Assembly (NCBI GenBank): GCA_023133655.1
Contig: JAGLWB010000328.1
Location: forward strand, 7,681-71,680
DNA: 64,000 nt
Source: Bacteroidales bacterium
GTDB lineage: Bacteria > Bacteroidota > Bacteroidia > Bacteroidales > JAGONC01
Reading direction: 5' to 3'
Both the position numbers and the translations under genes were made by a program. Position 1 is the stretch's first letter; every line of letters starts with the position of its first letter. The notes below the pieces were generated by a model. The model saw only the letters and a program-made list of their open reading frames with translations, was not told the origin of the DNA and made no database searches. Below are positions 1,686-58,763 of this stretch, piece after piece.

Positions 1686-1692
1686 TTTTATT

Positions 1693-2484: not shown

Positions 2485-2499
2485 TGCCGCCTCAAATAC

Positions 2500-3864: not shown

Positions 3865-3893
3865 TTTTAGAGCACTTATTTTTTTTTAACTTT

Positions 3894-6132: not shown

Positions 6133-6177
6133 TTTTAACTGTACTTTTTACGTTTAAAGCAACCCCCCAACAAGTTA

Positions 6178-7554: not shown

Positions 7555-7599
7555 ATGTCTTTTGTTTTCATTCAATGTTATCTTGTTAATTGTGTTTAG

Positions 7600-8850: not shown

Positions 8851-8858
8851 ACTGGTAA

Positions 8859-10328: not shown

Positions 10329-10340
10329 AATAAATATCTA

Positions 10341-41626: not shown

Positions 41627-41730
41627 GGCAGAGGGATATAGTTATTCCTTTTTTAACGAGAAAAGATGCAAAAGGTTCTTAATTTGGCTGCAAGCTGCAA
41701 GCTACAAGTTGAAGAGTCCCGATTTTCATC

Positions 41731-43177: not shown

Positions 43178-43217
43178 GATTTTCATCGGGATAAACTCCG
43201 TGACGAGATCCCGGTGT

Positions 43218-43254
43218 AAAAAAAAAAGGGACCTTCAAAGAAAGTCCCTTTTTG
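43218..43254 (-). terminator. Intrinsic terminator of the upstream OmpA/TSP3 gene
   Basis: On the minus strand: A-run, GGGAC stem, 11-nt loop, GTCCC stem, then T10. Lies 19 nt after the stop at 43273. Confidence 0.65.
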
Positions 43255-43272
43255 CTGACGATTAATTATTAT

Positions 43273-44856: not shown

Positions 44857-45227
44857 AGTTTTTTTGGTTAGGTTAGTAATTGATAGCTTCAAGAAAAAAA
44901 AAAGTTATTTATTTCGTATCGCGTATACTCGATACCTCAAGTAAGCAAATATACGACCTAATTTTTCAAAAAAAAAATATTCGGAGGAATAATTAGAAAT
45001 GAATTTTTAGTTTTATGGTTAAAATAGTGCAAATCAGCCTTAATTTGAAAATTTTGAAATCCTCCGGTGGGAGGACGAGCAAAGATTGTTTGGAGATGCT
45101 TGAACCTACACTTTGTTCATTTCCATTCTGTTTGACGTCATAGTTTTCCCGACACTAACTGATAAATTAAATATCAGAATATAGGAACTAATTAGCTTTA
45201 TTTATTAAAAGAATATTAAGTTACAAT

Positions 45228-45811: not shown

Positions 45812-48800
45812 ATGGAATATCAATATCCTTTCCTAAACCGCAAATCAGAAATTGATGAATTAAAAGCTGCTTTTGCAGAAAAAATTATTAAAAATAAAAC
45901 TACCCTTGGATACATAATTCAAGGAAGAAAAAAAATTGGAAAATCCAGGTTAATTGAGGAGTTTCTTAATATTGTTGAGAATGATATTGAGATTCATTCT
46001 GATGTTCCCAATTTTACAAGGGATAAACATGTTATAAACTATATTTGTGATAAGGATATTATCAAGCCTTATTTGCCATTTATTAAAATTGCTGAAGAAA
46101 TTCGAAAAAAAAATAAACTCATCAATATTTCTATTAAATTTGTTCAACTGGGGCTTGCTATTTTTGGAATCAATGATGCTTTAAAAGCGTTAAAAGATTT
46201 GGTTGATAATATTCAAAGCGGGAAAAGTGAGAGAGTTTTGGATAAGAAAGAAGTTACAACCTTTAATCGATATAGAAATTTTATAAGGCGTAGGAGTAAA
46301 AAGGTACCCCTGATAATTTTCATTCAAAATATCCAGTGGATTGATAATTATTCTTTGAAACTAATTAAGAAGTTGGTATATGAAGAACACTCTATGTGGG
46401 GAATGATCATTCTTGAAGAAGACGAAGGCGAGATTGAAGAGGAGATCCAGAATGGGATTAACCAATTTAAGCTTGAGGGTAAATTTCAAAGGTTGGTTTT
46501 AACGTCACTTGATAAGAATTTCCCACAAAAATTATTAACACCACGATTCGGACCAGAATTTATTAATGGTGAAGAAAATGATATTCTTTATTCAATATCT
46601 GAAGGCTGCCCTGGTATTTTAATTGAATTCATTGACAGTTGTCTGAAGAATAACTGGATTTTTTTTAAAGATAACAAATGTTATAAGGCAGATGATTTTT
46701 TTGAAAAGATTAAACCTGCTTCTCAAAAATTGCTGGAGCTCATCATTTCATTATATGAGGACAGAGAATTATCAGCCGGGGAACTACGGCTGATTAAACA
46801 AATGTCAGTTATGTGGGGGGTTTCTGATAAAAGAGTATCTGATACAATTTATATGGTAAAAGATATCATGAATTCCAGGTATAAATTGATACAGGATTTA
46901 GGGCCCGGTATAATTAGCAGAAATTGTTTTTTGGCTTTGGATAAAGAAAATAACAGAATGATTATTGAATATATTAGGTCTATTGGCAAACCACATAAAA
47001 GATCATTTTACACCAGGGAGATTGAGCACCGATATTTATTAGAAGCCAAAGAAATAAAAATTTGTGATGAAGGTGTGATGGTGATTTGGAATTATTTTGA
47101 GGGCAAAAGAAGCAGGCAAATACGCATTAAAGCGTTTGAAACTCGTATCTTAGATGTTAAAAATAAGTTTCTTCAAATTTCACTCGGCTTGGCTGAATTG
47201 CATAGAAATGAAAGTATACATGGTTGCCTAAGGCCTGAATCGATAATTGAGAAGGCGGACGGTAATTTTCAATTAGCTTCCTTTGATTTTTCTGTATTAA
47301 ATGAGATAACAGATTTTTATCTTAACATAGATTCGGATAATATTTATTATTTGGCACCGGAAACATTAGACTGTAAGTTAATCGATGCAAGAAGTGACAT
47401 CTATTCATTAGGAGTTTTGTTTTATAAGTCACTGACTGATAAATTTCCATATCATGGAACTGATAAGTCTGAATTAATCAGTGCCATTAAAAATGGCAAA
47501 CTTCAATTCAGTGGATATTTGCATTCCTTAATTCCTGATGATGTAAGGTCAATTATTAAAAAAAGCTTAGATTTTGATCCTAACAAAAGATACAAGTCAG
47601 CTAAGGAATTCCATGAGGATTTGAAGAAGATAGAATTAAAAAAACCTGAACCAATCCAAGATCCGGTTAAACCCCCATCACCCAGGAAGAGGATTATTAA
47701 ATGGGCAGCCTTAATATTTATTCCAATTTTATTATTTGTTGGAATTTATTATCTGATTTTTTTTCGAGAATCAACATTTAAGAAAAGTATTACTGATAAA
47801 ATTACTTTTAATGTAGATGCTTTTTCCCAAAATGCAAATCCGGATAGAATTATTTCCAGTGATGTGTTAGAATACCTTTTAATTGATGATCTTATTCAGA
47901 GTAGTAATCTGGTTGTTCTTACACCTAAGGAATTTAAAAAAATACATCCAAGCAGTCTTAAAGAAAATTTTTTTCCAATTTTGGAAATATCTGCATCCAT
48001 AATTAATAGAGAATTTAATTATAAAATAAAACTGGAACTAAAGAACAACATTACGGGAAACTCACAAGATTCAAGTTTTAGTTTTAATGAACCATCGCAA
48101 TTATTGAAAGGTGGTATAAATTCAATTACCCGAAAAGTATTGAATCAAATGAACATTGCAAAGCTCAAGAATTCAACATTCACACAAGACTGGGATGCTT
48201 TTATTGATTTTTATGAAGGTGAGAAAGCCTGGTTAAGGTTAGATAAAACACTAGCTCACCGGAGTTTTACAAGTGCCATAAATATTGATCCAGCGTTTAT
48301 TTTATGTAAGCTCAGGTTAGCCGATATTTATCGTTTTGAAGGTAATAATTCAAAAGCCCTTGAAACTTTAAATACTGTTAAACCTGAACTTGGTTTGTTA
48401 AGTATTGCTGATTCACTTAAAGCTGTGGCACTTCAGAATATTTTAGAAGGGAATATTAGAAAAGCTATTGATAATTACAAAGCTCTAATTGAATTTTTAC
48501 CTGCCAGAAAAGATTCATATTATAACTTGGCTGAGGCGTATTTTCAACTGAGAGAAATCCTGAATGCAAAAGTAAACTATGAGCTTGCGTTATCCATTGA
48601 TCCAGAATTCACTCCAGCCATAAACCATTACGGTTATTGCTTTTCCCATTTGGGTGATCATCAGGAAGCACTCAGGCAATTCAGGCGTTACGTTGAACTT
48701 GATTCTTCAGCTAATTCTTTTGATAGTATGGGTGATGGATTTCTGGCAGCTGGAATACTTGATAGTGCGATCTGGGCAAAAAATGAAGGATTAAAGTTGG

Positions 48801-49534
48801 ATCCTGATTTAGAGTATTTATACAACAGTCTTGGATATATATATAGCAGAAGGGGGGAGTTTGATAAAGCAGAAGAGAATATTGATAATTTTATAAAACT
48901 ATCAAAAAATTACAATGAACTAATCGCAGAGGGCTTAGTTAATAAAAGCCTTGTTTATTTCAGGCAAGGCAAGGTTAACCAGGCATATGATACTTGTATG
49001 AAAGCAAAAGAATTGTATGATCCCAACGATCTGATTTCCAGGAATCATAAAATGCATTGGTTAATAGCTCAGATTTATTTTCAGAAGAGAGAGTTTGAAA
49101 ATGTTATCAGTAAGGTTGATGAGATGGAAGGTATTATTAACCACTTTGATGTAAATTTTGATAATTATCATGAAATCATAAAGTATTATCTGCATTTACA
49201 AGCTTTATTGGGCAGCCATAATTCAGATTTGGAGGTAATTAAAGAAAAGGCATCAATTTTTGATTTTGAGATCAAGGAGAAGGTAAAAGATTGGGGATCT
49301 CCATTTGATCTGGCTTTTTTTAATACAGAGTTTGCCAGAATATATATGTCTTTAGAAAATGATGATCTGGCAATAATAAGATTGAATAAAGCGCTAGCGT
49401 ATAATCCAAATTTTGCCCTGGCTCATTATTACCTGAGTAATATTTATGGAACAAGAGGGGATGATCAATTAGAAAAAAAACATTTAATTTCTTTTCGTAA
49501 TAACTGGCATGGAACCAGTCTTCAGTTTTATTAA
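45812..49534 (+). CDS. Multidomain membrane protein: N-terminal AAA_16/STAND-like P-loop domain, degenerate Ser/Thr-kinase-like domain (pseudokinase), one TM helix, TolB-N/FlgO-like segment, long TPR array
   Basis: 1240 aa. FLNRKSEIDEL..GRKKIGKSRL (Walker A, aa 38-45). LIIFIQNIQWID at the Walker-B position. Hanks-fold blocks (IHGCLRPES, DFS, YYLAPE, SDIYSLGVLFY, DP.KRY.SA.EF). TM helix ~aa 630-651. TPR consensus repeats from ~aa 790 to the end. Confidence 0.75.
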   Translation: MEYQYPFLNRKSEIDELKAAFAEKIIKNKTTLGYIIQGRKKIGKSRLIEEFLNIVENDIEIHSDVPNFTRDKHVINYICDKDIIKPYLPFIKIAEEIRKKNKLINISIKFVQLGLAIFGINDALKALKDLVDNIQSGKSERVLDKKEVTTFNRYRNFIRRRSKKVPLIIFIQNIQWIDNYSLKLIKKLVYEEHSMWGMIILEEDEGEIEEEIQNGINQFKLEGKFQRLVLTSLDKNFPQKLLTPRFGPEFINGEENDILYSISEGCPGILIEFIDSCLKNNWIFFKDNKCYKADDFFEKIKPASQKLLELIISLYEDRELSAGELRLIKQMSVMWGVSDKRVSDTIYMVKDIMNSRYKLIQDLGPGIISRNCFLALDKENNRMIIEYIRSIGKPHKRSFYTREIEHRYLLEAKEIKICDEGVMVIWNYFEGKRSRQIRIKAFETRILDVKNKFLQISLGLAELHRNESIHGCLRPESIIEKADGNFQLASFDFSVLNEITDFYLNIDSDNIYYLAPETLDCKLIDARSDIYSLGVLFYKSLTDKFPYHGTDKSELISAIKNGKLQFSGYLHSLIPDDVRSIIKKSLDFDPNKRYKSAKEFHEDLKKIELKKPEPIQDPVKPPSPRKRIIKWAALIFIPILLFVGIYYLIFFRESTFKKSITDKITFNVDAFSQNANPDRIISSDVLEYLLIDDLIQSSNLVVLTPKEFKKIHPSSLKENFFPILEISASIINREFNYKIKLELKNNITGNSQDSSFSFNEPSQLLKGGINSITRKVLNQMNIAKLKNSTFTQDWDAFIDFYEGEKAWLRLDKTLAHRSFTSAINIDPAFILCKLRLADIYRFEGNNSKALETLNTVKPELGLLSIADSLKAVALQNILEGNIRKAIDNYKALIEFLPARKDSYYNLAEAYFQLREILNAKVNYELALSIDPEFTPAINHYGYCFSHLGDHQEALRQFRRYVELDSSANSFDSMGDGFLAAGILDSAIWAKNEGLKLDPDLEYLYNSLGYIYSRRGEFDKAEENIDNFIKLSKNYNELIAEGLVNKSLVYFRQGKVNQAYDTCMKAKELYDPNDLISRNHKMHWLIAQIYFQKREFENVISKVDEMEGIINHFDVNFDNYHEIIKYYLHLQALLGSHNSDLEVIKEKASIFDFEIKEKVKDWGSPFDLAFFNTEFARIYMSLENDDLAIIRLNKALAYNPNFALAHYYLSNIYGTRGDDQLEKKHLISFRNNWHGTSLQFY

Positions 49535-49578: not shown

Positions 49579-51354
49579 TCAGAAATTATTTTTAAAATGA
49601 AACCGAAATATTGTCCATTTTCTAGGGGGCCGAACCAATTCCCGATCAAAAATTAAATCTCCCGGGGTGCGTGAGAATAAAGTATTTGTAATTTTTCTGA
49701 ATCTAAAGGAAGAAATACCGATGATTGCAACAATGGAAATCAATGTTAAGAAAAGTGGATACCCCCATTCGTAAAGGTTAAAATATCTTTCAAATTCAAG
49801 GCTTTCCCAAGAGAATAATTTCAGAAAGAAATAAACAACAAATGAATAACCTAATAAAGTGGCTATGACCAGGGCAAATAGAGTTGGGAATATGATATAA
49901 ACCATCATTAATGTTTTATAGATATCCTTGAGGCCTTTGGTCCCAAATGCCATTAAAGTCCCAATATTCATTTTAATAATATCGAAGTGGTTTTTGAATA
50001 TGTTTGTTACAAATGTTGTCACAGAGTATATACTTATAATTAAGAGAATAAAAGAGATTCCAATTGTCAATCGAATCACATAATTAAAATTTTTCTTGGC
50101 ATGTACCTGAGCGATATCTATTCTGGGGAAGTCAGAGTGTTTATTTTTGAAATAATTTGAGAAATCTTCTATTTTTGAAAGATCATTAAAATGAACAGAA
50201 ATTCGAGTAAGCGGAAAGTCCAAATACGTCATTTGTTCAGGTGATATTAAATTCGGTGTATATAATTGGACAAGGAGATCTTTAAATTCCTTTAAATCCT
50301 CATGCAATATTAATTTATGAAAAATCTCTTCTACATCTGAAAAATCAGGGCTCTTACCTGTCAGCCTTATGTTACATATAAATCCACCATAGGGCGAGTC
50401 ACTGTAATCATCCTTCTTGATAAGTCTAAACGGTGTTCTATATCCTCTTAATATTTCCTTTGAAGTACTGAAGATATCTTTGACTCTATTTATTATCGTA
50501 TCAGCAATGATTGTATCTGTTGTATTGATGTGAAATATTAAATCTTTTGTATGTATTGGATCGAAAGGAATAGGGCTCCCGTCTCCTCTACCGTAATAAA
50601 TGTTATAAAACATATACTCAGTGACCAAAAAATCGATCGATGTTTCAGAATCGTTTGGCAGATTCTCCACCACCGCCAATATTGGAACAGGTATGTCGGC
50701 ATATCTTTTATTCTTGGTCTTAAGTCTTATTTGAACAAACCTTGAATCTAAATTTAAGCCAATTTGATCAAGTAAATTTTCAGTAACAATGATGCCGCAG
50801 GAAGAAGGATCATCAAAGCTACTGTATTTATTTGATTTTAAATTATCTGAAGAAAGAATCGTACTTAAAATTGGATTATCAAGATCAATTGTCCTTCCAT
50901 CTGTTCGGTAAGGATTAGGTAGATCATTCTTATTCACAAAATATCTGGGAAATACTGAAAATCCAGTCAGGTTATTAATATTATATTGCTTTTTCAGAAT
51001 TGAATCAGGTTGGATTTCTTCAATTATCATATTAGCACTATCCTGTAAGTCATAAGGAACAATAATATTGGAGAAATTTACGAAAGGATCGTTCATTTTT
51101 TTATCGAGATACATAATGCTACCTCCAGAAAAACCAATTGCCAGAAAAGTAATTAGCAGTATCCATAATAAGACTCTGAAATTCTTGTATCTATTTTTTC
51201 GATCAAGCAATACGGATCCCTCATGTTCGAAAAAGAGTCTTTTAAATTCATTGTGATTGCCTGTATCCTTATTAAAAACCCTTTCATAAAACATACAAAG
51301 ACTTGTAAAAATATTTTGCGTGGATAAATAACTGTGTTTATCTTTTCGTGCCAT
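49579..51354 (-). CDS. MacB/FtsX-type (type VII) ABC transporter permease with large periplasmic domain
   Basis: 591 aa. TM1 ~aa 60-83, a ~340-aa extracytoplasmic domain (..GIIVTENLLDQIGL..IPVPILAVVENLP..), then 3 TM helices with the FtsX block KMNIGTLMAFGTKG. Lies 9 nt downstream of the ABC ATPase gene. Confidence 0.75.
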   Translation of the reverse strand: MARKDKHSYLSTQNIFTSLCMFYERVFNKDTGNHNEFKRLFFEHEGSVLLDRKNRYKNFRVLLWILLITFLAIGFSGGSIMYLDKKMNDPFVNFSNIIVPYDLQDSANMIIEEIQPDSILKKQYNINNLTGFSVFPRYFVNKNDLPNPYRTDGRTIDLDNPILSTILSSDNLKSNKYSSFDDPSSCGIIVTENLLDQIGLNLDSRFVQIRLKTKNKRYADIPVPILAVVENLPNDSETSIDFLVTEYMFYNIYYGRGDGSPIPFDPIHTKDLIFHINTTDTIIADTIINRVKDIFSTSKEILRGYRTPFRLIKKDDYSDSPYGGFICNIRLTGKSPDFSDVEEIFHKLILHEDLKEFKDLLVQLYTPNLISPEQMTYLDFPLTRISVHFNDLSKIEDFSNYFKNKHSDFPRIDIAQVHAKKNFNYVIRLTIGISFILLIISIYSVTTFVTNIFKNHFDIIKMNIGTLMAFGTKGLKDIYKTLMMVYIIFPTLFALVIATLLGYSFVVYFFLKLFSWESLEFERYFNLYEWGYPLFLTLISIVAIIGISSFRFRKITNTLFSRTPGDLIFDRELVRPPRKWTIFRFHFKNNF

Positions 51355-51363
51355 AGCTTCAGG

Positions 51364-53238
51364 TTATCTAAGATTAGTTCTCAATTCATGTTCCAATTCT
51401 TCATGGGTATATTCCTTTTTTGTAAGGCTTTTCCAGGTACTTTTCCTGGAAAGATCATGACCTTCTTCATCAAAAAGAAAATTTACAAAATCAAATAATT
51501 TTTTAGTTATTAAACCATTTTTTAAAAATTCAACATTTAATGAATCAATTAATTCATGAATTCTTATTATAAAGCCTTCCTTTAGGATAAAAGGCAATTT
51601 CTTTAAGATCTTTAAATTAATAAATGACGTGAAATCAGAGCTTGACTTTTCCATTGTTAAAGTTGCATCCATTTCTGCATTAGCTGTGATAAGTTCTAGT
51701 TTATCTAATAATGCAAAAATTTTTTTGTCATAATTATCCTCTTTGAAGTTTACTCCGTTTGGTTTTTTAATATCGATTGATTTAATAGCTTTGTCAATAT
51801 CCTGGAAAATAGGATAAAATATTTCATCATATATTTGACTAATTAATTTTTTTGTATCGGTTGATTGATATAGAGTATTTTGAATATTACTTTGATCAAG
51901 TTCTTTTAAGATTCCACTTATATCTTCAAAAAGTCTTTTACATATAGCGCTTATGGTTTTTTGAATCCCCTCTTCTACATTTAAATTATATGTCTGAACA
52001 AGATCATTAAAATAGAGTGTGATGTATTCAGAAAGGTTGAATTCATATGTTCCTTTTAAACGGTTGACAATTTCATGAATTTCTTCAGAGATATCATCTC
52101 TGGATTCGAAATTTTCGATTAAATAATTTATAATTGCTTTAGTATATATTATTGAAGTTATTTTTTTGAAAGTTATTAAGACGTTTTTATTCTTCTTTAT
52201 TATTTCATTAATTCGTTTAGATTTCATTTCATCCTTAAAGAGAGAATTTATTTCCTTTTTATAGTCACAGAAGACCCTTGTCTCGGTTACATCCTGTCTG
52301 AAGAGATTAATATGCTTTTTATCACAAAAAGATAAAATGTTTTCTTTGAAGGGATCAAACAGTTTGTGTGTTTCGCTTTTTGCATTAAGGCAATTATTGT
52401 TTGCTTTAAGTATATCTTCAGCTTCAACATTTTTATCCCTATCAAATATATTTTTTTTCTGTATCTCACCTAGTCCGTTGATCAGATTTTTATTCAACAA
52501 AATAATTCTGTCCGCAAAATACAATGCGAGATTGAGGTCGTGTGATACAATAATAGCCGACTTTTTATCATGATCGATATATTCTTTTAAAATGGACATC
52601 ACTTCAGTTGAATTCCTATGATCGAGATTTCCGGTAGGCTCGTCCCCGAATAAAATATTGAATTCAGGTACGATGGCACGGGCGAAAGCTATTCTTTGTC
52701 GTTCTCCACCGGAAATATTTTTGGGAGAAACTTCAATTGGCAGATGCCCTAATTCAAGATCAAGAAATATTATTAATGCTTTCATATATGAACACAGATA
52801 GGGAGAACCACCTCCCTTTACCATATCTGTAATACACACATTATCTATTGCTGAGAAATTGGGCATGAGATTTGTTTCCTGGAAAATAAAGCTCATATGG
52901 ACATTTCGAATATCTATACGTTCTGTAAAAATTTTGTCATTCCAGATTTCATCATTAATATAATCTTTAGTATACACTCCCCCTTTTGCTTCCGGCTGTT
53001 CAAACTTAATACTTGAAGATCCTTTGGGATTGGGTTGTATTGTGTTATTCATTATACCAAGGGTTTCAAGGAATGTACTTTTCCCTGATCCTGATGCTCC
53101 CACTATAATGGTGATCTTCTCCCTGGGTATTATTAATTCATCGATTTGATTATTGATATTCAGGACTTCTATGAATTTATTGTTTTGAGAATCTTTATAA
53201 TAACAATTCGATTGTTGAATACTGAATAATTTTTTCAT
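51364..53238 (-). CDS. ABC transporter ATP-binding protein with ~360-aa C-terminal extension of unknown fold
   Basis: 624 aa. Walker A GASGSGKST (aa 47-55), Q-loop FIFQE, signature ISGGERQRIAFARA, Walker B ILFGDEPTGNLD (D199/E200), H-loop IIVSHD. The ABC core ends near aa 262. I cannot assign aa 263-624 (nt 51364-52452) to any family; it looks helical and Lys/Glu/Ile-rich. Confidence 0.85.
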   Translation of the reverse strand: MKKLFSIQQSNCYYKDSQNNKFIEVLNINNQIDELIIPREKITIIVGASGSGKSTFLETLGIMNNTIQPNPKGSSSIKFEQPEAKGGVYTKDYINDEIWNDKIFTERIDIRNVHMSFIFQETNLMPNFSAIDNVCITDMVKGGGSPYLCSYMKALIIFLDLELGHLPIEVSPKNISGGERQRIAFARAIVPEFNILFGDEPTGNLDHRNSTEVMSILKEYIDHDKKSAIIVSHDLNLALYFADRIILLNKNLINGLGEIQKKNIFDRDKNVEAEDILKANNNCLNAKSETHKLFDPFKENILSFCDKKHINLFRQDVTETRVFCDYKKEINSLFKDEMKSKRINEIIKKNKNVLITFKKITSIIYTKAIINYLIENFESRDDISEEIHEIVNRLKGTYEFNLSEYITLYFNDLVQTYNLNVEEGIQKTISAICKRLFEDISGILKELDQSNIQNTLYQSTDTKKLISQIYDEIFYPIFQDIDKAIKSIDIKKPNGVNFKEDNYDKKIFALLDKLELITANAEMDATLTMEKSSSDFTSFINLKILKKLPFILKEGFIIRIHELIDSLNVEFLKNGLITKKLFDFVNFLFDEEGHDLSRKSTWKSLTKKEYTHEELEHELRTNLR

Positions 53239-53247
53239 AGTTTTCTA

Positions 53248-53680
53248 TTAGTTACATTTCTGGTTATAACACGGGAAATAATACAAAGGTACCCAAAAAA
53301 CACCGAATGTCGTGAACATTCTTGTTCCATATTCTTCAAATGGATAAATAGCTCTAAGTTTTTGAAGTTTCTGGTATGATTGTCTAACTTCTTTTCTAAA
53401 TTCAGTTAAATTGGGCAATCCATTATTCCTGTGTGTAGTATTACATCGGTTTGGGTCTAAAATATCGCCAACTGTCAAATTACAAATTTTTGAACATTCA
53501 GTTAACTTGGAATCAGTTATGTTGGCTATTAAATAACACATTTTGCATATTTTAATATCATCTGGATTTACAGGTTTATCTCCAGAAAATATTAATGGTT
53601 ATATATTTGTTCAGGATTGGTAATTGATTCACCATTAATTTTTCTGGGTGTTTTCAGAAATTCCTGACAAGAAGAATTTC
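53248..53680 (-). pseudogene. Decayed partial duplicate of the 3' end of the upstream 844-aa gene; the last 97 codons remain an intact ATG-initiated ORF (53248-53541)
   Basis: The ORF 53248-53541 aligns with aa 762-844 of ORF 53789-56323 at about 58/83 identical residues by hand alignment, with all five Cys conserved. In-frame homology continues upstream of the ATG (PLIFSGDKPVNPDDIKIC vs ALIYSGDQTVNPDDLTIC) to a TAA. Further upstream, homology (LSGISENTQKN vs FRGVSENTLRN) is in another frame and carries stops. Confidence 0.65.
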
Positions 53681-53788: not shown

Positions 53789-56323
53789 TTAATTACAATC
53801 ATAACTACTGCAAGTGAAATAGTATACAGGAATCCAATAAACACTAAATGTTTTAAACCCCCTGGTTCCATATTCCTCAAAAGGATAAATAGATTTAATT
53901 TTTTGAAGTTCATGGTATGAGTTCCTAACTTCTCTTCTGAATTCAGTTAAATTGGGCAAATCATTATTCCTTGGTATAGTATTGCATTGGGTTGGATCTA
54001 AAATATCGCCAACTGTCAAATTACAAATTCTTGAACAAGTACCAAGTTCGGTAATTGGTGAATCAATAATCATTTGGAATAATTCGCAAATTGTAAGATC
54101 ATCCGGGTTTACTGTTTGGTCTCCTGAATAAATTAATGCTAATCTCTCAAAAACATCGTGCAAACGATTCCTTAAAGTGTTTTCTGAAACTCCTCTGAAC
54201 ATTGATTCAATAAGATCAAGTTCTCTCGTGAATTGTTCCAGTTCATCAACGGTCACCATAACATCAAAAGCCCACCAATCGCCATTAGAATTGGATGGCT
54301 GAATAAATGAAAAACCTTCTTTGTAGAACTGGTTCTTTTCACTTAAAACTTTTTCAAGAATGCCTTCTTCAATGATTTCATTTATTGACATATCGGGATA
54401 AACCTTTCTAAGCATTTCGAGTATTTCCCTTGTAATTGTGGCAATATCGGCGGTGAAATCCCCACCTGGCAAATTTATTCCATATTCGTCAAGTATCTCT
54501 TCTAAACTTTTATGTCCGTATGATAACTCATGTAAGACTTCCATAAGCATCTTAGTACCATAACTCGCATCAATTATTATGCGTTCTATATTTTCGGTTA
54601 GGTATGATTCATTCATCCTTTCGTTTGGTTCTGCATATATGAGTTTATGGACCAGTGACGATTTTTCACTGAATGATACAATATTATTATCTGTATCATC
54701 ATGTGTCTTTGAATCAGATGCTATACCCGAACGTCTTAGTAAATTTTGTTGATTAGATCTTTCAATCAATTGTGTAATTTGATTTTTGAAATCTCGATAA
54801 GTAGTATCCTTACAATTTTGATTCAAGGAATCACAAATCTTGTAATCTGTTTGAAATGCCAAGAGATTACAATTTAGCGTATCTATTAAGTTGATTAATT
54901 CAGGTAATATGGGTTGTCCGGCGTCAGTAACTGATGTCCAATCGTCAGTTCTTTCATGATCACCTGCATCCCCAATTAATACAATGATATTTGTTTCATC
55001 CTCTCTTTCATGTCCAATTATATACTCAAGTGCATACCATAAGCCATAATACATTGCCTCCGGTAAATCAGGATCTCCCCTGTCTTTGTTAGGATCATAA
55101 ACATTGGTTAAAAAATCAGAAACTTGCGAGTAGTCACTAACTATATTCTGTTCTTCAATAGCATAACTGTCATGAAATGAATCTCTGTAAACTACAGCTC
55201 CCCAATTAAGCTTGATACCTGTAGGATTTTTTGGATCAATAATTTGTGGATTCCTGTTTAACTCCCTAACACCATTATTAATTGCATCAACAACAGGGTT
55301 AAAATATTCTCTCATACTCATAGTTCCATCTATGACAAATACGACATTCATTATATTTTTAGGTGACTTGCTGAAGGCCTCACGCAAAGAATCTATTATT
55401 GCTGTAATTCTTATGCCCTTGTCATCGGTAATATCTCCTAATCTTCCCAACATTATGTTGTTTACCTCACAATTGTTTTGATCCTGAGTTATTATTCCTG
55501 TCTTTTTTCCAAGATAAGGAAGTCTGAACATTGAGCCGTGCCATTTTTTATTTGTAACCTGATCTCTGGCCCAGATTTGTGGAGCATTAACTCCTGCACA
55601 TATATCGTTGGTGTCAAGAATCAATGCCGGAGACCTATCAGTTGAACAGTAATTAGGTTGTACACAACCTCTTGAGTCCCATTGTGTAACAAATCTTTTA
55701 TCGATCCAGCCCTTTATTGTAAGAGGAAGGTTTCTTTCAATATTTGATGGGAATGCATCTTGCTCGCCCAGTAACAAAAAATCCCCAATTTGTTTGTAGA
55801 TATAATAAATGGTATATACCTGTGATCCTCTACCTGCAATTCTCTTTGTATCATCCAAAGGAACACTAAAGAAATTAAAGTCTTCCGTTATTGTTTCAAT
55901 AGTATTAACAATCATTGCTTTATATGAGGTCCTATTAGCTTTTTGTATACAATGAGGTAGAAGGATCAATTTTTCCTTTTTTATCCAACCAATGGAATTA
56001 CTATTACCTAATCTGGCTAATTCAACCCAAGAATCATTTTCATCGATAACATTGAAGGATTCTAAATAATCCAGAGATGTTCGATTTCCTGCTCCTTCAG
56101 ATGGCTGGGATTTAGTTCTATTCCCTGTACGGTCTGAAAAAACAATCCAGTCTAATGTTCCACGTTCATCAGCAATCTGGTGATAAATTTGTGATGGGTT
56201 GGTAATTACTACACCTCTGATCCTTTCGGGTACTCTTAAAAGGACCTGGCTATAAACTGGAACGGTAAATGCAATTAATAAAATGAATATGATTAAACTT
56301 CTTATGTAAAATAAAGCTTTCAT
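53789..56323 (-). CDS. Secreted protein: signal peptide, SH3b-like region(s), vWA domain with MIDAS-like DxTxS, helical region, Cys-rich C-terminal module
   Basis: 844 aa. Signal peptide (..FTVPVYSQ). SH3b-like ..FNVIDENDSWVELARLGNSNSIGWIKKEKL.. vWA: NVVFVIDGTMSM (D332-x-T334-x-S336) ... IIVLIGDAGDHE (aa ~326-495, nt 54839-55348). The C-terminal 85 aa carry 5 Cys. Confidence 0.7.
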   Translation of the reverse strand: MKALFYIRSLIIFILLIAFTVPVYSQVLLRVPERIRGVVITNPSQIYHQIADERGTLDWIVFSDRTGNRTKSQPSEGAGNRTSLDYLESFNVIDENDSWVELARLGNSNSIGWIKKEKLILLPHCIQKANRTSYKAMIVNTIETITEDFNFFSVPLDDTKRIAGRGSQVYTIYYIYKQIGDFLLLGEQDAFPSNIERNLPLTIKGWIDKRFVTQWDSRGCVQPNYCSTDRSPALILDTNDICAGVNAPQIWARDQVTNKKWHGSMFRLPYLGKKTGIITQDQNNCEVNNIMLGRLGDITDDKGIRITAIIDSLREAFSKSPKNIMNVVFVIDGTMSMREYFNPVVDAINNGVRELNRNPQIIDPKNPTGIKLNWGAVVYRDSFHDSYAIEEQNIVSDYSQVSDFLTNVYDPNKDRGDPDLPEAMYYGLWYALEYIIGHEREDETNIIVLIGDAGDHERTDDWTSVTDAGQPILPELINLIDTLNCNLLAFQTDYKICDSLNQNCKDTTYRDFKNQITQLIERSNQQNLLRRSGIASDSKTHDDTDNNIVSFSEKSSLVHKLIYAEPNERMNESYLTENIERIIIDASYGTKMLMEVLHELSYGHKSLEEILDEYGINLPGGDFTADIATITREILEMLRKVYPDMSINEIIEEGILEKVLSEKNQFYKEGFSFIQPSNSNGDWWAFDVMVTVDELEQFTRELDLIESMFRGVSENTLRNRLHDVFERLALIYSGDQTVNPDDLTICELFQMIIDSPITELGTCSRICNLTVGDILDPTQCNTIPRNNDLPNLTEFRREVRNSYHELQKIKSIYPFEEYGTRGFKTFSVYWIPVYYFTCSSYDCN

Positions 56324-56341: not shown

Positions 56342-58762
56342 TTAGTATTGAAGTTTTGGATCTTTAATGAAATAATAATCAGCTTGCTCTTCGCTTATAC
56401 CTTTCGATTGATTAAAGTATTCGAATTCAGTGTTTGAGAAATACTTGTCTTCAATCAAATAAGTTTGTATATTATAGTGAATTTCTTTTTTTATGTCATT
56501 CAGCGGAATATCATTAAAATATATAGAACTTAATTCAGAAATAAGCCTTGTAGCATCACTTTGAGAAGAAAACAAATAGTCCTTTCGAGTAATTAAACTA
56601 TTCTCTGTGTAAAACAAATGCATATTTACTTTCCTTCTGCTTGCATTCAAATAAGTGTCAAGTTTAAGAGATGAAGCCGCAAGAACAGTAATTTCATCAT
56701 CTGCACTTAACCTTCTTGATCCATATTTGTTTAGTATACCATAATATAACTCATCTGATGAATTTACGGTATTAAAATCTTCATAATTTCCGAATAAAAC
56801 TGGATCTTGGATATCAGTGCTGATATATATTAAATAATTCTGGTTCAGGCGATTAATGCTTCTTACTATTTTTTTAACCTGGTCAACAATTATCTCTCTC
56901 TTTGGCCTATATGAGATATTCGAATAATCATCTTCATAAAGGCTTACATATATCAGATTAAATGGTGTTAGTTCTTCAGTAGCAAGGTTGATTGATTGTT
57001 CAATTTCATTTTCATTGAATAAATCAGTGAGTTTTAGAGAAAGATAATCATTATTGACATCATTTGCAGATTTGATTTCATCACATATTATATCATACAT
57101 ATACGGTTTCCTGATTTTTAATGTCAATGTATTATTTCCTGAAAGTCTGAAATTTAGCCTGTTATTCCCATTACCAATTGATCCATTCTTATAAATATTG
57201 TCCTCCTCATCAACCAGGTAGTAATCCAGTTTAGCCGGGCTGTTATTCAGGTATATATTTAATTGTTTTTTAATATCTCCCTTCATAACATACTTGCTGG
57301 CCTTTTTTCCTGATGGTAATCGTGTTGGCTTATGATAAGGAACATTCGGTCGTATTAAATTAAAAGCAATACCGATATTGCCTCCCCAGTGAATGGTCCT
57401 TGTTGGATTTGCGTTAATCAGACTATTATATTCACCATAATCAGGTGATAAGTGATAATTATTTTCTTTTGAAATGGAGGTTATATCAAATATCACAGAA
57501 GGGCCAAAGTAAATTTCAAAATAACTATTTATTGGTATGCTAAATGTTAAGGCAGAATATCCTGATAAATAAACAGTGTTTAATTCATTCGTGATTTCTT
57601 GCTTTGGTAATATAGTATCAATGAAACCATAATATGGGAGATCGTATAATAATACTGATACAGAGTCCAATGTAACTGGATGTTTAAATCGATATAATCC
57701 CCTGTAAGATATTGAGTTAGTGTAGTCCTGATTATAACTGAAATTATGATTGAAAGGGAAATTAATACTTAACCCTAATTCAAACTGTAAGGAAGGTCTT
57801 GGATTTTTTTTATTATTGACCCACTTATTTGGAAGATAATAATCTAAGTAAAAACCAACCGGAACACCAATAGATGAGAATTTCGATTCTTCATAAACAT
57901 CGAAACCGATTAATAATTTAGTATAGTTTTGTCCTTCAATATCTTTATCTTTATAACTATCGCTAAAATCACTTAAATTAATTTTAGTATTGAAAGCCCG
58001 GTAGTTTATTCCACCACTTACTCCATACTTAAAATTTTTTGTTGAAATTCCGTTTAGATCCCAATAGGATTTCAGACTGAGAGCGATGCTTCTGCTTGAT
58101 TCATAAGAGAGTGTTTTGTACTTAGGGGATATCTCGGATGTTGAAAATTCCAGAGGGCCGAATAATGCTTCTACTTTTATTTTATCCGGTATGGATTTTT
58201 TATACCAGGATTGATCAACAATGGCCTCTTTAGGTTTTGCTATTTTATAGATTCTAAAAACTGATTCTCCTTTAATTGATTTCTCTATTATCGTAAAAGT
58301 GAGGCGAGTGCTATTCGCAAAATACCTGATTGGAGGATCCTCAACCATATCATCGATCGACATGTTTTTATTGAGTGATAAAGTTATAATATTGATTTCA
58401 CCCTTCTGTTCAATCTTGTGTAATATCAGATCATTAAATGATACCATAAAACCTTTTGGGTAGTGTTTTTCTATTAAACCACAATATTTGCTTACAGTGA
58501 TATACTCCTGGATTGAATCAATGTGAACTATATCATTATATACCAAAACAGCCGGATCATTAAAATACCTGATAAATCTATTTCTGTTTTCTTCAGAATA
58601 GGTAAAGTATCCAAAATTTTGAGAATAAATACTTAAACTGGCCGACTTCTCAAATTGAACAAGAAAGTTCTGTAACTCTATGTTTAAGTTTTGGCTATAA
58701 GTCAGTTTACATAATAGGAAAAAAACCAGAATTACTGATATTTTGATTTTCATAATTTTCAT
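56342..58762 (-). CDS. Outer-membrane protein: N-terminal domain plus beta-barrel (paralogous to 60217-61770) plus ~300-aa C-terminal extension of unknown function
   Basis: Signal peptide (MKIMKIKISVILVFFLLCKLTYSQ). The barrel-like middle shares blocks with the 517-aa ORF (GVSGGINYRAF/GFSVGLNYSSF, NYTKLLIG/DYTKLISG, SISYRGLYRF/SITYRGKYYF). The ORF-track start (58798) is a GTG overlapping the upstream gene by 35 nt. The ATG at 58762 lies 1 nt after that gene's stop. Confidence 0.55.
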   Translation of the reverse strand: MKIMKIKISVILVFFLLCKLTYSQNLNIELQNFLVQFEKSASLSIYSQNFGYFTYSEENRNRFIRYFNDPAVLVYNDIVHIDSIQEYITVSKYCGLIEKHYPKGFMVSFNDLILHKIEQKGEINIITLSLNKNMSIDDMVEDPPIRYFANSTRLTFTIIEKSIKGESVFRIYKIAKPKEAIVDQSWYKKSIPDKIKVEALFGPLEFSTSEISPKYKTLSYESSRSIALSLKSYWDLNGISTKNFKYGVSGGINYRAFNTKINLSDFSDSYKDKDIEGQNYTKLLIGFDVYEESKFSSIGVPVGFYLDYYLPNKWVNNKKNPRPSLQFELGLSINFPFNHNFSYNQDYTNSISYRGLYRFKHPVTLDSVSVLLYDLPYYGFIDTILPKQEITNELNTVYLSGYSALTFSIPINSYFEIYFGPSVIFDITSISKENNYHLSPDYGEYNSLINANPTRTIHWGGNIGIAFNLIRPNVPYHKPTRLPSGKKASKYVMKGDIKKQLNIYLNNSPAKLDYYLVDEEDNIYKNGSIGNGNNRLNFRLSGNNTLTLKIRKPYMYDIICDEIKSANDVNNDYLSLKLTDLFNENEIEQSINLATEELTPFNLIYVSLYEDDYSNISYRPKREIIVDQVKKIVRSINRLNQNYLIYISTDIQDPVLFGNYEDFNTVNSSDELYYGILNKYGSRRLSADDEITVLAASSLKLDTYLNASRRKVNMHLFYTENSLITRKDYLFSSQSDATRLISELSSIYFNDIPLNDIKKEIHYNIQTYLIEDKYFSNTEFEYFNQSKGISEEQADYYFIKDPKLQY

Positions 58763-58763
58763 T

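What the first reader, a model, noticed from the sequence alone, without database searches (positions are those of the whole stretch)
49579..53238. MacB/FtsX-type ABC pair whose ATPase carries a ~360-aa C-terminal tail with no recognisable domain
Seen: the ATPase has all canonical catalytic motifs: GASGSGKST, FIFQE, ISGGERQRIAFARA, ILFGDEPTGNLD and IIVSHD. It also has a ~50-aa insertion between Walker A and the Q-loop (..NNTIQPNPKGSSSIKFEQPEAKGGVYTKDYINDEIWNDKIF..). After aa ~262 a further ~360 aa follow (nt 51364-52452) that are Ile/Lys/Glu/Asp-rich and presumably helical. The permease (9 nt downstream) has the 1+3 TM FtsX topology, the KMNIGTLMAFGTKG block and a ~340-aa periplasmic domain. 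No membrane-fusion (MacA/HlyD-like) or TolC-like gene is present. The locus instead contains a vWA protein and unfamiliar barrels. Knowledge: FtsE, LolD and MacB nucleotide-binding domains are ~220-250 aa and normally lack large C-terminal additions. In type VII ABC systems the cytoplasmic ATPase cycle is transmitted to the periplasmic domain. Inference: the tail may be a regulatory or docking platform, for example for the neighbouring STAND/pseudokinase protein, or an oligomerisation device.
Basis: partly seen in the sequence, partly recalled or inferred. Interest (0 to 1): 0.55.

Follow-up and report, generated by a model that had tools for sequence, protein, structure and literature searches.

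The report
Split TssR-linked ABC pump, orphan tail
The long "tail" on this ABC ATPase is the over-grown, fast-evolving linker of a MacB-like transporter gene cut in two by one in-frame stop codon. The pair belongs to a Bacteroidota-wide transporter family, not described in the papers I could search, that always sits next to a TssR-like protein of the type VI secretion membrane complex.

Summary
On the minus strand, a 624-aa ABC ATPase (51364-53238) has about 362 aa after the nucleotide-binding domain (NBD). A 591-aa four-helix FtsX/MacB-type permease (49579-51354) starts 9 nt downstream. The tail is a true orphan: a search of 1.84 billion proteins, Pfam and PDB found nothing. It is helical, non-repetitive and intact in five assemblies.

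The tail is best read as a linker remnant, not a fused domain. In many relatives the NBD and permease form one MacB-like protein. The NBD-to-permease spacer is about 55-100 aa in most of 78 loci and 175-300 aa in two clades. It is 414 aa here, the longest. Here the two ORFs share one reading frame, separated by a single TAA.

The family occurs in at least 225 Bacteroidota species. A TssR-like vWA gene lies directly upstream in 52 of 56 loci. Some loci lie inside complete T6SSiii clusters. Others carry FHA-PP2C-kinase cassettes, recalling TagQRST-PpkA of Pseudomonas. Most, like this one, stand alone.

No evidence links the tail to the neighbouring pseudokinase. The tail itself is of modest interest; the TssR-ABC module is worth following up.

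The parts
51364..53238 (-). ABC ATPase gene, 624 aa (NBD plus tail), ending in TAA at 51364-51366
   Evidence: ORF and translation. Pfam ABC_tran E=2.8e-16. Best NCBIfam matches are LolD, FtsE and MacB, all below their cutoffs. The same 624-aa gene is called in independent assemblies.
52453..53238 (-). Nucleotide-binding domain, aa 1-262, with all catalytic motifs and a net ~21-aa insertion between Walker A and the Q-loop
   Evidence: Motifs read. Alignment to MJ0796 and LolD chains covers aa 41-250. Relatives of the family carry an insertion in the same region (WA-to-signature spacing 117-120 aa; 129-130 aa in the window and P0004).
51367..52452 (-). Orphan helical tail, aa 263-624: the expanded N-terminal part of the NBD-to-TM1 linker
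   Evidence: Only self-hits in the word-indexed search and in the exhaustive phmmer search (the second hit, P0028, is an unrelated repeat protein). No Pfam or PDB match. AF2 gives pLDDT 36 with all-helical DSSP. Hydrophobic periodicity of 3.73 residues, no internal repeats, no TM helix. It aligns topologically with the linkers of fused relatives.
51355..51366 (-). Junction: TAA stop plus a 9-nt spacer (CCT GAA GCT), in frame with the permease ATG
   Evidence: Sequence and translation across the junction read ...RTNLR*PEAMARKDK.
49579..51354 (-). FtsX/MacB-type permease, 591 aa: cytoplasmic N-terminal helices, TM1, a ~340-aa periplasmic domain, then TM2-4
   Evidence: Hydropathy. AF2 model pLDDT 80.6, pTM 0.69. 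Foldseek top hits are LolE/LolC, MacB, YtrF, HrtB, YbbP, BceB and FtsX, with E down to 1e-8. Family of 26 protein clusters and at least 225 species loci.
53248..53541 (-). 97-aa ORF: a duplicated copy of the C-terminal 100 aa of the TssR-like protein, probably a remnant
   Evidence: BLASTP 65% identity, E=7e-45, to TssR-like aa 745-844. 249-nt direct repeat at 80% identity.
53789..56323 (-). TssR-like vWA envelope protein, 844 aa, Sec signal without a lipobox Cys; the conserved upstream partner of the ABC pair
   Evidence: Pfam TssR_VWA 58.7 bits and TssR N-barrel 33.7 bits, both above cutoff. N-terminus read. A TssR-like gene lies directly upstream of the NBD in 52 of 56 related loci.
56342..58798 (-). 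818-aa secreted protein with no Pfam family; contains a barrel region of the OMP517/L10_516 family; conserved in the window-like clade
   Evidence: No Pfam hit. Homologues occupy the same position in L003, L006, L014, L016 and L017. Hit by the X530 barrel profile.
58764..60182 (-). PKD-domain protein with a T9SS C-terminal sorting domain, 472 aa (TssP also has PKD domains)
   Evidence: Pfam PKD_4 and Por_Secre_tail. Homologues in L006, L014, L016 and L017, with cross-hits to the PKD gene of T6SS-embedded loci.
60217..61770 (-). 517-aa outer-membrane beta-barrel protein, a conserved module member
   Evidence: Weak Pfam OMP_b-brl hit. hhalign gives 98.6% probability to the 516-aa family found in T6SSiii loci. 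The family is present in 31 of 49 loci with at least 6 kb upstream.
61799..63589 (-). 596-aa T9SS-sorted protein at the head of the cluster
   Evidence: Por_Secre_tail hits. Homologues in L014, L016 and L057. Upstream lie a 973-aa beta-helix T9SS protein and then mutS.
45812..49534 (+). Divergently transcribed STAND NTPase - pseudokinase - TM - TPR protein, 1240 aa. It is a neighbour; membership of the system is not shown.
   Evidence: Pfam AAA_16, Pkinase and TPR. HRD reads HGC, DFG reads DFS, and a hydrophobic segment sits after the kinase domain (about aa 630-655). Absent from the nearest relatives.

Best explanation
The ATPase and permease are the two halves of a MacB-architecture type VII ABC mechanotransducer (NBD, linker, TM1, periplasmic domain, TM2-4). 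The transporter belongs to a Bacteroidota-specific family that is genetically coupled to TssR-like vWA envelope proteins.

Origin of the tail. In this lineage the cytoplasmic NBD-to-TM1 linker has expanded from about 60 aa to about 414 aa of amphipathic helices. The gene is cut inside that linker by one in-frame TAA. About 85% of the linker therefore remains as a C-terminal 'tail' on the ATPase, and the rest forms the N-terminal cytoplasmic helices of the permease. The tail is thus a fast-evolving tether or spacer, not an acquired domain. This origin is shown by the data.

Inferred roles of the tail. It may keep the free ATPase associated with its permease by packing against the permease N-terminal helices. 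It may also offer a lineage-specific cytoplasmic surface.

Inferred mechanism of the system. ATP binding and hydrolysis drive conformational changes in the enlarged periplasmic domain. These changes act on, or report the state of, an envelope assembly built from the TssR-like protein, a PKD protein and a ~517-aa outer-membrane barrel. In some relatives this module is part of a T6SSiii locus. In others it is wired to FHA/PP2C/Ser-Thr-kinase signalling, analogous to TagQRST-PpkA. Here it stands alone.
For: Linker origin:
- Fused relatives (P0004 at 1009 aa, P0008 at 1034 aa, and many at 801-866 aa) carry the NBD and permease in one chain.
- The alignment places the window tail between the conserved post-NBD helix and the pre-TM1 motif.
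- Across 78 loci the spacer is 50-100 aa in 48, 100-125 aa in 3 and 175-300 aa in 27. It is 414 aa in the window.
- The two ORFs are in frame across one TAA.
- The closest relative, L003, is split at the homologous position (MKRKG against MARKD).

Orphan and helical character.

Real coding sequence.

Type VII ABC identity.

TssR coupling: a TssR-like gene lies directly upstream in 52 of 56 loci, and one gene away in the other 4.

T6SSiii embedding: L010 carries TssK, TssO, TssR, ABC-FtsX, ClpV, TssC, Hcp, VgrG and TssE. Six further loci have at least 2 core genes (L061, L065, L068, L075, L076, L079, L083).

Signalling cassettes: Pkinase at E~1e-50 in 14 loci, PP2C in 11 and FHA in 11. L090 shows a co-directional PP2C-kinase-...-TssR-NBD-FtsX-...-FHA operon.

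Shared barrel family.

Background from the literature: type VII ABC systems work by mechanotransmission (PMC12646458). TagTS is an ABC-like complex acting with the lipoprotein TagQ and with TagR upstream of PpkA (PMC13584744). TssR is a vWA component of the T6SSiii membrane complex that binds the PKD protein TssP (PMC10781749).
Against: - No structural model of the tail is usable (pLDDT 36).
- No complex prediction was possible, so the tethering role is inference only.
- The extra 120-230 aa relative to the nearest relatives is unexplained.
- The window TssR-like protein has no lipobox Cys, unlike B. fragilis TssR.
- No T6SS core, FHA or PP2C gene lies in the 64-kb window, so the output of the module here is unknown.
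- Gene neighbourhood does not prove physical interaction between FtsX and TssR.
- The in-frame stop, a duplicated TssR fragment and a nearby IS element are also compatible with a decaying locus.
Confidence: 0.62

Rival explanations
1. The tail is a dedicated regulatory or docking platform. For example, it could bind the cytoplasmic STAND/pseudokinase part of the neighbouring 1240-aa protein, or dimerise the ATPases.
For: - The tail is long, amphipathic-helical and intact.
- The neighbour has a cytoplasmic NTPase plus pseudokinase, then a TM helix and TPR repeats.
- Kinase/PP2C/FHA cassettes recur beside the module in 15 of 80 related loci.
- Long spacers occur only in loci with no separately encoded signalling cassette and no T6SS genes. 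The linker could therefore substitute for a missing partner.
Against: - The tail has no homologue anywhere and almost no similarity even to the closest relative's spacer. A conserved binding interface is therefore unlikely.
- The STAND/pseudokinase gene is absent from L006, L014, L016 and L017.
- All kinase-associated loci have short spacers.
- No interaction test was possible.
Confidence: 0.17
2. The locus is decaying. A nonsense mutation has recently broken a fused MacB-like gene, and the tail is a relic without function of its own.
For: - A single in-frame TAA separates the two ORFs.
- A duplicated fragment of the TssR-like gene lies immediately upstream.
- An IS-type transposase lies at 41847-43163.
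- No T6SS or signalling partners are present in the window.
Against: - Both halves are intact ORFs of 624 and 591 codons in a 30% GC context where stops are frequent.
- An ATG follows the stop by three codons.
- The 38%-identical relative L003 is split at the homologous site with a homologous start, which points to an old and stable fission.
- Two-gene versions are common and evidently functional in the family.
- All six upstream module genes are intact.
Confidence: 0.1
3. The pair is an ordinary substrate-handling type VII ABC system, an efflux or lipoprotein/surface-protein export machine like MacAB-TolC or LolCDE. The TssR-like/PKD proteins would act as periplasmic adaptors and the 517-aa barrel as the outer-membrane exit. 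The T9SS-sorted neighbours might be cargo or surface partners.
For: - The fold is closest to LolC/E and MacB, and the NBD is closest to LolD.
- An outer-membrane barrel and periplasmic proteins are conserved in the operon.
- T9SS C-terminal-domain proteins lie in the cluster.
Against: - There is no HlyD-type adaptor, no TolC-type duct and no LolA.
- LolD, MacB and FtsE equivalog scores are far below cutoff.
- The embedding next to tssR in T6SSiii loci and the FHA/PP2C/kinase cassettes point to a structural or signalling role.
- The window TssR-like protein has no lipobox.
Confidence: 0.2
4. The tail results from a sequencing or assembly frameshift that joined a separate downstream gene to the ATPase.
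For: None found.
Against: - The sequence is identical without indels in five assemblies from different samples and pipelines.
- No other frame is open.
- Fused relatives have a continuous linker at this position.
Confidence: 0.01

Closest known systems
MacB (type VII ABC transporter, MacAB-TolC)
   Same: - Domain order in fused relatives is NBD, linker, TM1, periplasmic domain, TM2-4.
- The permease model matches MacB chains (5lil, 5gko, 5nik) at E 1e-7 to 1e-8.
- The NBD aligns to the MacB NBD.
   Different: - No MacA/HlyD adaptor or TolC.
- The periplasmic domain is about 340 aa, against about 200 aa.
- The linker is expanded up to 414 aa and the gene is split here.
- The partners are TssR-like vWA, PKD and a ~517-aa barrel.
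LolCDE lipoprotein extractor
   Same: - LolE/LolC are the best structural matches.
- LolD is the best NBD match.
- The ATPase and permease are separate polypeptides.
   Different: - The LolD equivalog score is 123 against a cutoff of 308.
- There is a single permease gene.
- No LolA is encoded nearby.
- The window TssR-like partner lacks a lipobox Cys.
TagT-TagS of the TagQRST-PpkA-Fha1-PppA threonine phosphorylation pathway (P. aeruginosa H1-T6SS)
   Same: It is a type VII-like ABC pair (COG1136/COG4591) encoded in a T6SS context. It works with envelope proteins upstream of a Hanks kinase, a PP2C phosphatase and an FHA protein (PMC13584744). Relatives of the window pair sit in T6SSiii loci or beside kinase/PP2C/FHA cassettes. 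Some of those kinases carry an FGE-sulfatase domain. The review assigns TagR to COG1262, which from my own knowledge is the FGE/SUMF1-domain COG.
   Different: - The phylum and the T6SS class differ.
- Specific orthology to TagTS was not tested.
- The partner is TssR-like, not TagQ or TagR.
- In the sampled loci the T6SS core genes and the kinase cassettes never co-occur.
- The window has only a pseudokinase and no FHA or PP2C.
T6SSiii membrane complex TssNQOPR (Bacteroides fragilis)
   Same: - The upstream gene is a TssR homologue with the vWA and N-barrel domains.
- A PKD protein lies nearby, as with TssP, which binds TssR (PMC10781749).
   Different: - No TssN, TssO or TssQ, and no sheath, tube or baseplate genes, in the window.
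- The B. fragilis complex has no ABC component (no occurrence of 'ABC', 'FtsX' or 'ATPase' in PMC10781749).
- That paper reports no membrane-complex homologues outside T6SS loci. Here TssR-like genes are mostly outside them.
FtsEX-EnvC/PcsB
   Same: It is a mechanotransmitting type VII ABC that controls a periplasmic partner rather than transporting a substrate. FtsX chains are among the fold hits.
   Different: - The FtsE equivalog score is 99.7 against a cutoff of 265.
- The periplasmic domain is much larger.
- There is no coiled-coil hydrolase activator.
- The housekeeping division cluster lies elsewhere in the window (411-12461).

Membership tests
Type VII ABC (MacB/LolCDE/FtsEX superfamily) | ABC NBD with Walker A, Q-loop, signature, Walker B, D-loop and H-loop | tested here: met
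   Motifs read. ABC_tran E=2.8e-16. Aligned to LolD, MJ0796 and MacB NBDs.
Type VII ABC (MacB/LolCDE/FtsEX superfamily) | Permease with four TM helices (1+3) and a large periplasmic domain between TM1 and TM2 | tested here: met
   Hydropathy peaks at about 57-83, 425-451, 478-512 and 527-550. AF2 model pLDDT 80.6.
Type VII ABC (MacB/LolCDE/FtsEX superfamily) | MacB/LolC-type fold of the TM bundle and periplasmic domain | tested here: met
   The Foldseek PDB top 40 are almost exclusively LolC/E, MacB, YtrF, HrtB, YbbP, BceB and FtsX. Isolated LolE and MacB periplasmic domains also match.
Type VII ABC (MacB/LolCDE/FtsEX superfamily) | Pfam FtsX (PF02687) above the gathering score | tested here: not met
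   The window permease scores 17.5 bits against a cutoff of 25.5. Many relatives do carry PF02687. This reflects sequence divergence, not a different fold.
MacAB-TolC tripartite pump | Adjacent HlyD/MacA-type membrane-fusion protein and a TolC-type outer-membrane factor | tested here: not met
   No HlyD, MFP or OEP domains in any locus gene. MacB equivalog score is 88 against a cutoff of 966.
LolCDE | LolD equivalog score, and LolC/LolE permeases with a LolA partner | tested here: not met
   TIGR02211 scores 123.4 against a cutoff of 307.75. The permease has no NCBIfam hit. No LolA gene in the locus.
FtsEX | FtsE equivalog score, and a small FtsX periplasmic domain binding an EnvC/PcsB-type activator | tested here: not met
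   TIGR02673 scores 99.7 against a cutoff of 264.85. The periplasmic domain is about 340 aa. No such activator lies nearby.
T6SSiii locus (TssNQOPR membrane complex plus core) | TssR homologue | tested here: met
   PF20782 scores 58.7 and PF17643 scores 33.7 bits, both above the 25.7 cutoff.
T6SSiii locus (TssNQOPR membrane complex plus core) | Sheath, tube, spike, baseplate and ClpV genes (TssB, C, D, E, F, G, K, VgrG) and TssN/O/Q nearby | tested here: not met
   None found in the 64-kb window using phmmer with core proteins from seven T6SSiii loci or Pfam. Upstream flank runs to mutS without T6SS genes. The rest of the genome could not be searched.
TagQRST-PpkA-type threonine phosphorylation pathway | Active Hanks kinase, PP2C phosphatase and FHA protein encoded with the ABC-like pair | tested here: not met
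   The window has only a kinase-like domain, with HRD reading HGC and DFG reading DFS, and no FHA or PP2C. The feature is met in 13 related loci, for example L090, L034 and L074.
TagQRST-PpkA-type threonine phosphorylation pathway | Specific orthology of the ABC pair to TagT/TagS, and presence of TagQ/TagR | not tested
   No P. aeruginosa sequences were available in the tools used. The resemblance is by architecture and context only (PMC13584744).

The most novel reading that the evidence does not exclude
The TssR-like protein, PKD protein, ~517-aa barrel and this ABC/FtsX pair form a previously undescribed Bacteroidota trans-envelope, ATP-driven device. It would be the ancestor or a sibling of part of the T6SSiii membrane complex. 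In some lineages it controls or energises T6SSiii assembly. In others it feeds an FHA/PP2C/Ser-Thr-kinase relay, making it a functional counterpart of TagQRST-PpkA. In lineages lacking those partners, the hyper-expanded cytoplasmic linker, which is the 'tail' here, has taken over the role of cytoplasmic adaptor.
Probability: 0.3. Interest if true: 0.8.

Novelty: new variant of a known kind. Interest (0 to 1): 0.58.

Why it matters
The tail, taken alone, shows how an apparent 'novel domain' can arise. It is an interdomain linker that expanded and was then stranded by gene fission. Annotators should take this as a caution, and it is only mildly interesting.

The wider result matters more. A type VII ABC transporter is the near-obligate neighbour of TssR-like genes in at least 225 Bacteroidota species. 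TssR is known only as a component of the T6SSiii membrane complex. The 2024 paper that defined that complex lists no ABC component and reports no homologues outside T6SS loci. Here most TssR-like genes with this ABC partner lie outside T6SS loci. Some lie inside them, immediately next to tssR and clpV.

This gives T6SS researchers three things:
- A testable candidate for an ATP-dependent step or checkpoint in T6SSiii membrane-complex assembly.
- A candidate Bacteroidota analogue of the Pseudomonas TagQRST-PpkA sensing pathway.
- A possible evolutionary source for TssR.

Cultured carriers exist, for example Roseimarinus sediminis DSM 28824 (L051).

Tried and rejected
- **Homologues of the tail.** The word-indexed search of 5.8 billion proteins and the exhaustive phmmer search of 1.84 billion representatives returned only the protein itself. 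One further hit, the repeat protein P0028, is spurious.
- **Structure of the tail.** Single-sequence AF2 gave pLDDT 36. I ran no further search on it because the matches would be meaningless.
- **Known domains in the tail.** Pfam at E<=1 and PDB sequences at E<=1 gave nothing.
- **Tail against the 78 other family spacers.** Only the closest relative scored, at 13 bits. There is no conserved 'tail domain' even within the long-linker clade.
- **Internal repeats or paralogues in the window.** None.
- **Anti-phage defence reading.** PADLOC gave only generic ABC and kinase domain hits, so I rejected it.
- **Frameshift or assembly artefact.** Rejected.
- **Conservation of the STAND/pseudokinase neighbour.** It is not found in the nearest relatives.
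- **Selection analysis on the tail.** Not possible, because the available copies differ by 0-2 nucleotides.
- **Literature.** Searches for an ABC/FtsX component of T6SSiii found none.
- I did not use the third large protein search or the metagenome scan, because the 80 genome loci already answered the distribution question.

Full report
**1. Checking the observation**

The two genes lie on the minus strand. The ATPase occupies 51364-53238 (624 aa) and the permease 49579-51354 (591 aa).

Pfam ABC_tran covers aa 35-202. Alignments to LolD, MJ0796, MacB and FtsE chains end at about aa 250. About 362 residues (nt 51367-52452) therefore follow the nucleotide-binding domain (NBD).

The Walker A to Q-loop insertion is real but smaller than stated. 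It is a net ~21 aa relative to MJ0796, not ~50 aa, because the quoted stretch includes the normal beta-subdomain. An insertion in the same region occurs across the family.

The permease has four hydrophobic helices and a periplasmic domain of about 340 aa. The window is Bacteroidales chromosome: it carries the dcw cluster, PFOR and T9SS-sorted proteins, and the source name is 'MAG: Bacteroidales bacterium'.

**2. Is the tail real coding sequence?**

Yes.
- The tail frame has no stop in 362 codons, while the other five frames have 14-57 stops.
- At 30% GC, the chance of an open frame of this length is about 5e-16.
- The gene is 99.9-100% identical, without indels, in five assemblies from different samples and pipelines (L001 and L002 full length; L011-L013 covering codons 1-480).

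An assembly or sequencing frameshift is excluded.

**3. Does the tail resemble anything?**

No.
- A word-indexed search of 5.8 billion proteins and an exhaustive phmmer pass over 1.84 billion cluster representatives returned only the protein itself. One additional hit was a spurious repeat protein.
- Pfam gave nothing above cutoff, and PDB sequences gave nothing at E<=1.
- Single-sequence AlphaFold2 was uninformative about the fold (pLDDT 36), although its secondary structure is all helical.
- The hydrophobicity spectrum peaks at 3.73 residues, 14.8 times the mean power, which is typical of amphipathic helices. There are no internal repeats, no TM segment and no paralogue in the window.

**4. 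What the tail is**

The permease has a small but clear family of 26 protein clusters. Many members are single MacB-like polypeptides with the NBD at the N-terminus, ranging from 783 to 1034 aa.

An alignment of the NBD-to-TM1 region is informative. It shows a conserved post-NBD helix (NIFDR...FK..l) and a conserved pre-TM1 amphipathic motif (dF+kLFy.kEg..LlGk). A variable insert lies between them, and the window tail is that insert.

I measured the spacer in 78 loci, from the residue aligned to NBD position 250 to the residue aligned to permease position 40:

| Spacer length | Number of loci |
|---|---|
| 50-100 aa | 48 |
| 100-125 aa | 3 |
| 175-300 aa | 27 (a Prolixibacteraceae clade at ~277 aa, and the window's own clade at 188-296 aa) |
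| 414 aa | the window, the longest |

The insert sequences are not conserved between clades. Even the closest relative, L003 (38% identical permease), gives only 13 bits.

The window ATPase and permease ORFs are in the same reading frame...RTNLR-TAA-PEA-MARKDK. L003 is split at the homologous point (MKRKG...), with a 22-nt out-of-frame spacer. The fission is therefore probably old and stable, not a fresh lesion.

The tail is therefore the expanded interdomain linker of a MacB-architecture transporter, stranded on the ATPase by gene fission. It is not an acquired domain. This explains both its position and its lack of homologues.

**5. Type VII ABC membership**

An AlphaFold2 model of the permease built on a 25-sequence family alignment is confident (pLDDT 80.6, pTM 0.69). 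Its best PDB matches are LolE/LolC, MacB, YtrF, HrtB, YbbP, BceB and FtsX. Isolated LolE and MacB periplasmic domains also match.

The fold-level features of the superfamily are met. The specific equivalogs are all far below cutoff:

| Equivalog | Score | Cutoff |
|---|---|---|
| LolD | 123 | 308 |
| FtsE | 100 | 265 |
| MacB | 88 | 966 |

There is no HlyD/MacA, TolC or LolA gene in the locus. The pair is a distinct subfamily.

**6. The system it belongs to**

The 'vWA protein' immediately upstream (53789-56323) is TssR-like. Pfam TssR_VWA and the TssR N-barrel both score above cutoff.

A scan of one genome per GTDB species found the permease family in at least 225 species. Of the 80 loci kept, nearly all carry Bacteroidota record titles. 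I compared the window proteins, and proteins from a T6SS locus, with six-frame ORFs of those loci:
- A TssR-like gene lies directly upstream of the NBD in 52 of 56 loci that have enough upstream DNA. In the other four it is one gene away. Several loci have tandem TssR paralogues.
- A ~500-aa outer-membrane barrel family is present in 31 of 49 loci with at least 6 kb upstream. The window 517-aa protein belongs to it, with hhalign probability 98.6% to the T6SS-locus version.
- A PKD protein often accompanies these genes.
- The window's own clade (L006, L014, L016, L017) keeps the full order: T9SS protein, barrel, PKD, ~815-aa protein, TssR-like, ABC-FtsX.
- That clade also keeps a position beside mutS, which argues for vertical chromosomal inheritance.

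**7. Three genomic contexts**

(i) **Inside complete T6SSiii loci.** In L010 the fused ABC-FtsX gene sits between tssR and clpV, with TssK, TssO, TssC, Hcp, VgrG and TssE around it. L061, L065, L068, L075, L076, L079 and L083 are similar.

(ii) **With a Ser/Thr phospho-signalling cassette.** Genuine Hanks kinases (Pkinase E~1e-50) occur in 14 loci, PP2C in 11 and FHA in 11, and 13 loci carry at least two of the three. In L090 the genes run co-directionally as PP2C, kinase, barrel-family protein, two small proteins, TssR, NBD, FtsX, BACON protein, FHA/DUF805. In L034 and L074 an FHA gene begins right after the permease, followed by PP2C and, further downstream, the kinase. Some kinases carry an extracytoplasmic FGE-sulfatase domain.

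(iii) **Stand-alone.** This is the commonest case: only 6 of 39 well-flanked loci have at least two T6SS core genes. The window belongs here. It has no T6SS core, FHA or PP2C gene anywhere in 64 kb.

Contexts (i) and (ii) did not overlap in this sample, and both have only short spacers. Long spacers occur only in context (iii).

**8. Comparison with the literature**

- TssR is a vWA component of the B. fragilis T6SSiii membrane complex TssNQOPR and binds the PKD protein TssP. That paper mentions no ABC, FtsX or ATPase component. It states that no membrane-complex homologues are detected outside T6SS loci (PMC10781749).
- A 2026 review of T6SS accessory genes lists only TagA, TagB and TagC for Bacteroidota. 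It describes TagT/TagS (COG1136/COG4591) as an ABC-like complex acting with the lipoprotein TagQ and with TagR (COG1262) upstream of PpkA-Fha1-PppA in Pseudomonas (PMC13584744).
- Type VII ABC systems act by mechanotransmission rather than by transport across the membrane (PMC12646458).
- Full-text searches found no description of an ABC/FtsX partner of TssR or of T6SSiii.

The TssR-ABC/FtsX module therefore appears undescribed in the papers I could search. TagTS is its closest functional analogue, and MacB its closest architectural relative.

**9. Mechanism**

Shown:
- The linker origin of the tail.
- The type VII ABC fold.
- The obligate TssR-like neighbourhood.
- The three genomic contexts.

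Inferred:
- ATP-driven movements of the enlarged periplasmic domain act on, or sense, an envelope assembly of TssR-like, PKD and barrel proteins.
- The tail keeps the detached ATPase with its permease and may give a lineage-specific cytoplasmic surface.

The 1240-aa neighbour is a STAND NTPase, then a pseudokinase (HRD reads HGC, DFG reads DFS), then a TM helix, then TPR repeats. It is missing from the nearest relatives.

A decay scenario is possible but disfavoured. It rests on the in-frame stop, a duplicated TssR fragment at 53248-53541 and a nearby IS element. Against it, all genes are intact and the split is shared with L003.

**10. Verdict**

The tail itself is a new variant of a known thing: an expanded and split linker in a type VII ABC transporter. 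It is of modest interest. The system it led to is of real interest to T6SS and envelope biologists. That system is a Bacteroidota-wide TssR-coupled ABC/FtsX module found in T6SSiii loci, beside kinase/PP2C/FHA cassettes, or alone.

Overall interest is 0.58.

Noticed in passing
window 51355-51366 (-): The ATPase and permease ORFs are in the same frame, separated only by TAA plus three codons (PEA) before the ATG. The pair is effectively one MacB-like gene with a single in-frame stop. Read-through would give a fused protein of about 1219 aa.
   Followed up: partly
window 53248-53541 (-) and 53789-54037: A 97-aa ORF between the TssR-like gene and the ATPase copies the last 100 aa of the TssR-like protein (65% aa identity). 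The underlying 249-nt direct repeat is 80% identical with 541-nt spacing. It has no signal peptide and is probably a remnant of a TssR paralogue.
   Followed up: yes
L090:1492-15469; also L034, L048, L053, L054, L060, L074, L026, L077, L082, L089, L091, L092: FHA, PP2C and Hanks-kinase genes are packed co-directionally with the TssR-ABC-FtsX module in several Bacteroidota clades. Some of the kinases carry FGE-sulfatase domains. The arrangement resembles the TagQRST-PpkA-PppA-Fha1 pathway, but no T6SS core genes lie within 10 kb.
   Followed up: partly
L010:7613-15164; L065, L075, L076, L083: In T6SSiii loci of Flavobacteriales, Chitinophagales and Saprospiraceae MAGs, a fused ABC-FtsX gene sits directly between tssR and clpV. 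The T6SSiii papers I read mention no such component.
   Followed up: partly
80 related loci (L014-L093): TssR-like genes, which are T6SSiii membrane-complex homologues, mostly lie outside T6SS loci when paired with this ABC system (33 of 39 well-flanked loci). This is at odds with the published statement that no membrane-complex homologues occur outside T6SS loci (PMC10781749).
   Followed up: partly
L008:78-9142; L026, L054, L022, L053, L064: Tandem arrays of two to four TssR paralogues, some truncated to ~470-510 aa, lie upstream of the ABC pair.
   Followed up: no
L009, L024, L051 and other Prolixibacteraceae loci (fused proteins of 1030-1035 aa): The ~277-aa linker of this clade is conserved within the clade. 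It contains two hydrophobic stretches (for example ALLGFFPWLILSIAPLASSIFAKF) that could form an extra membrane hairpin. A conserved ~606-aa ABC-like gene lies about 3 kb upstream.
   Followed up: no
all related loci: Long NBD-TMD spacers (188-414 aa) occur only in loci that have neither T6SS core genes nor kinase/PP2C/FHA cassettes nearby. Every locus with those partners has a short spacer (55-101 aa).
   Followed up: partly
window 45812-49534 (+): The 1240-aa neighbour is a membrane protein: STAND NTPase (AAA_16), then a kinase-like domain lacking the catalytic Asp (HGC for HRD), then one TM helix (about aa 630-655), then about 580 aa of TPR repeats, presumably periplasmic.
   Followed up: partly
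window 39872-44892: A DDE transposase (41847-43163) sits between two paralogous OmpA/thrombospondin-repeat genes (39872-41626 and 43273-44892). The region from 46 kb to the window end has 30-33% GC, with one 2-kb bin at 34.6%, against 32-42% (mostly 35-41%) for the rest of the window.
   Followed up: no
L011:3-2645; L014:13402-16035; L017:14617-17277: The module lies within a few kb of mutS in the window organism and in two related species. This suggests a conserved chromosomal position rather than a mobile island.
   Followed up: no
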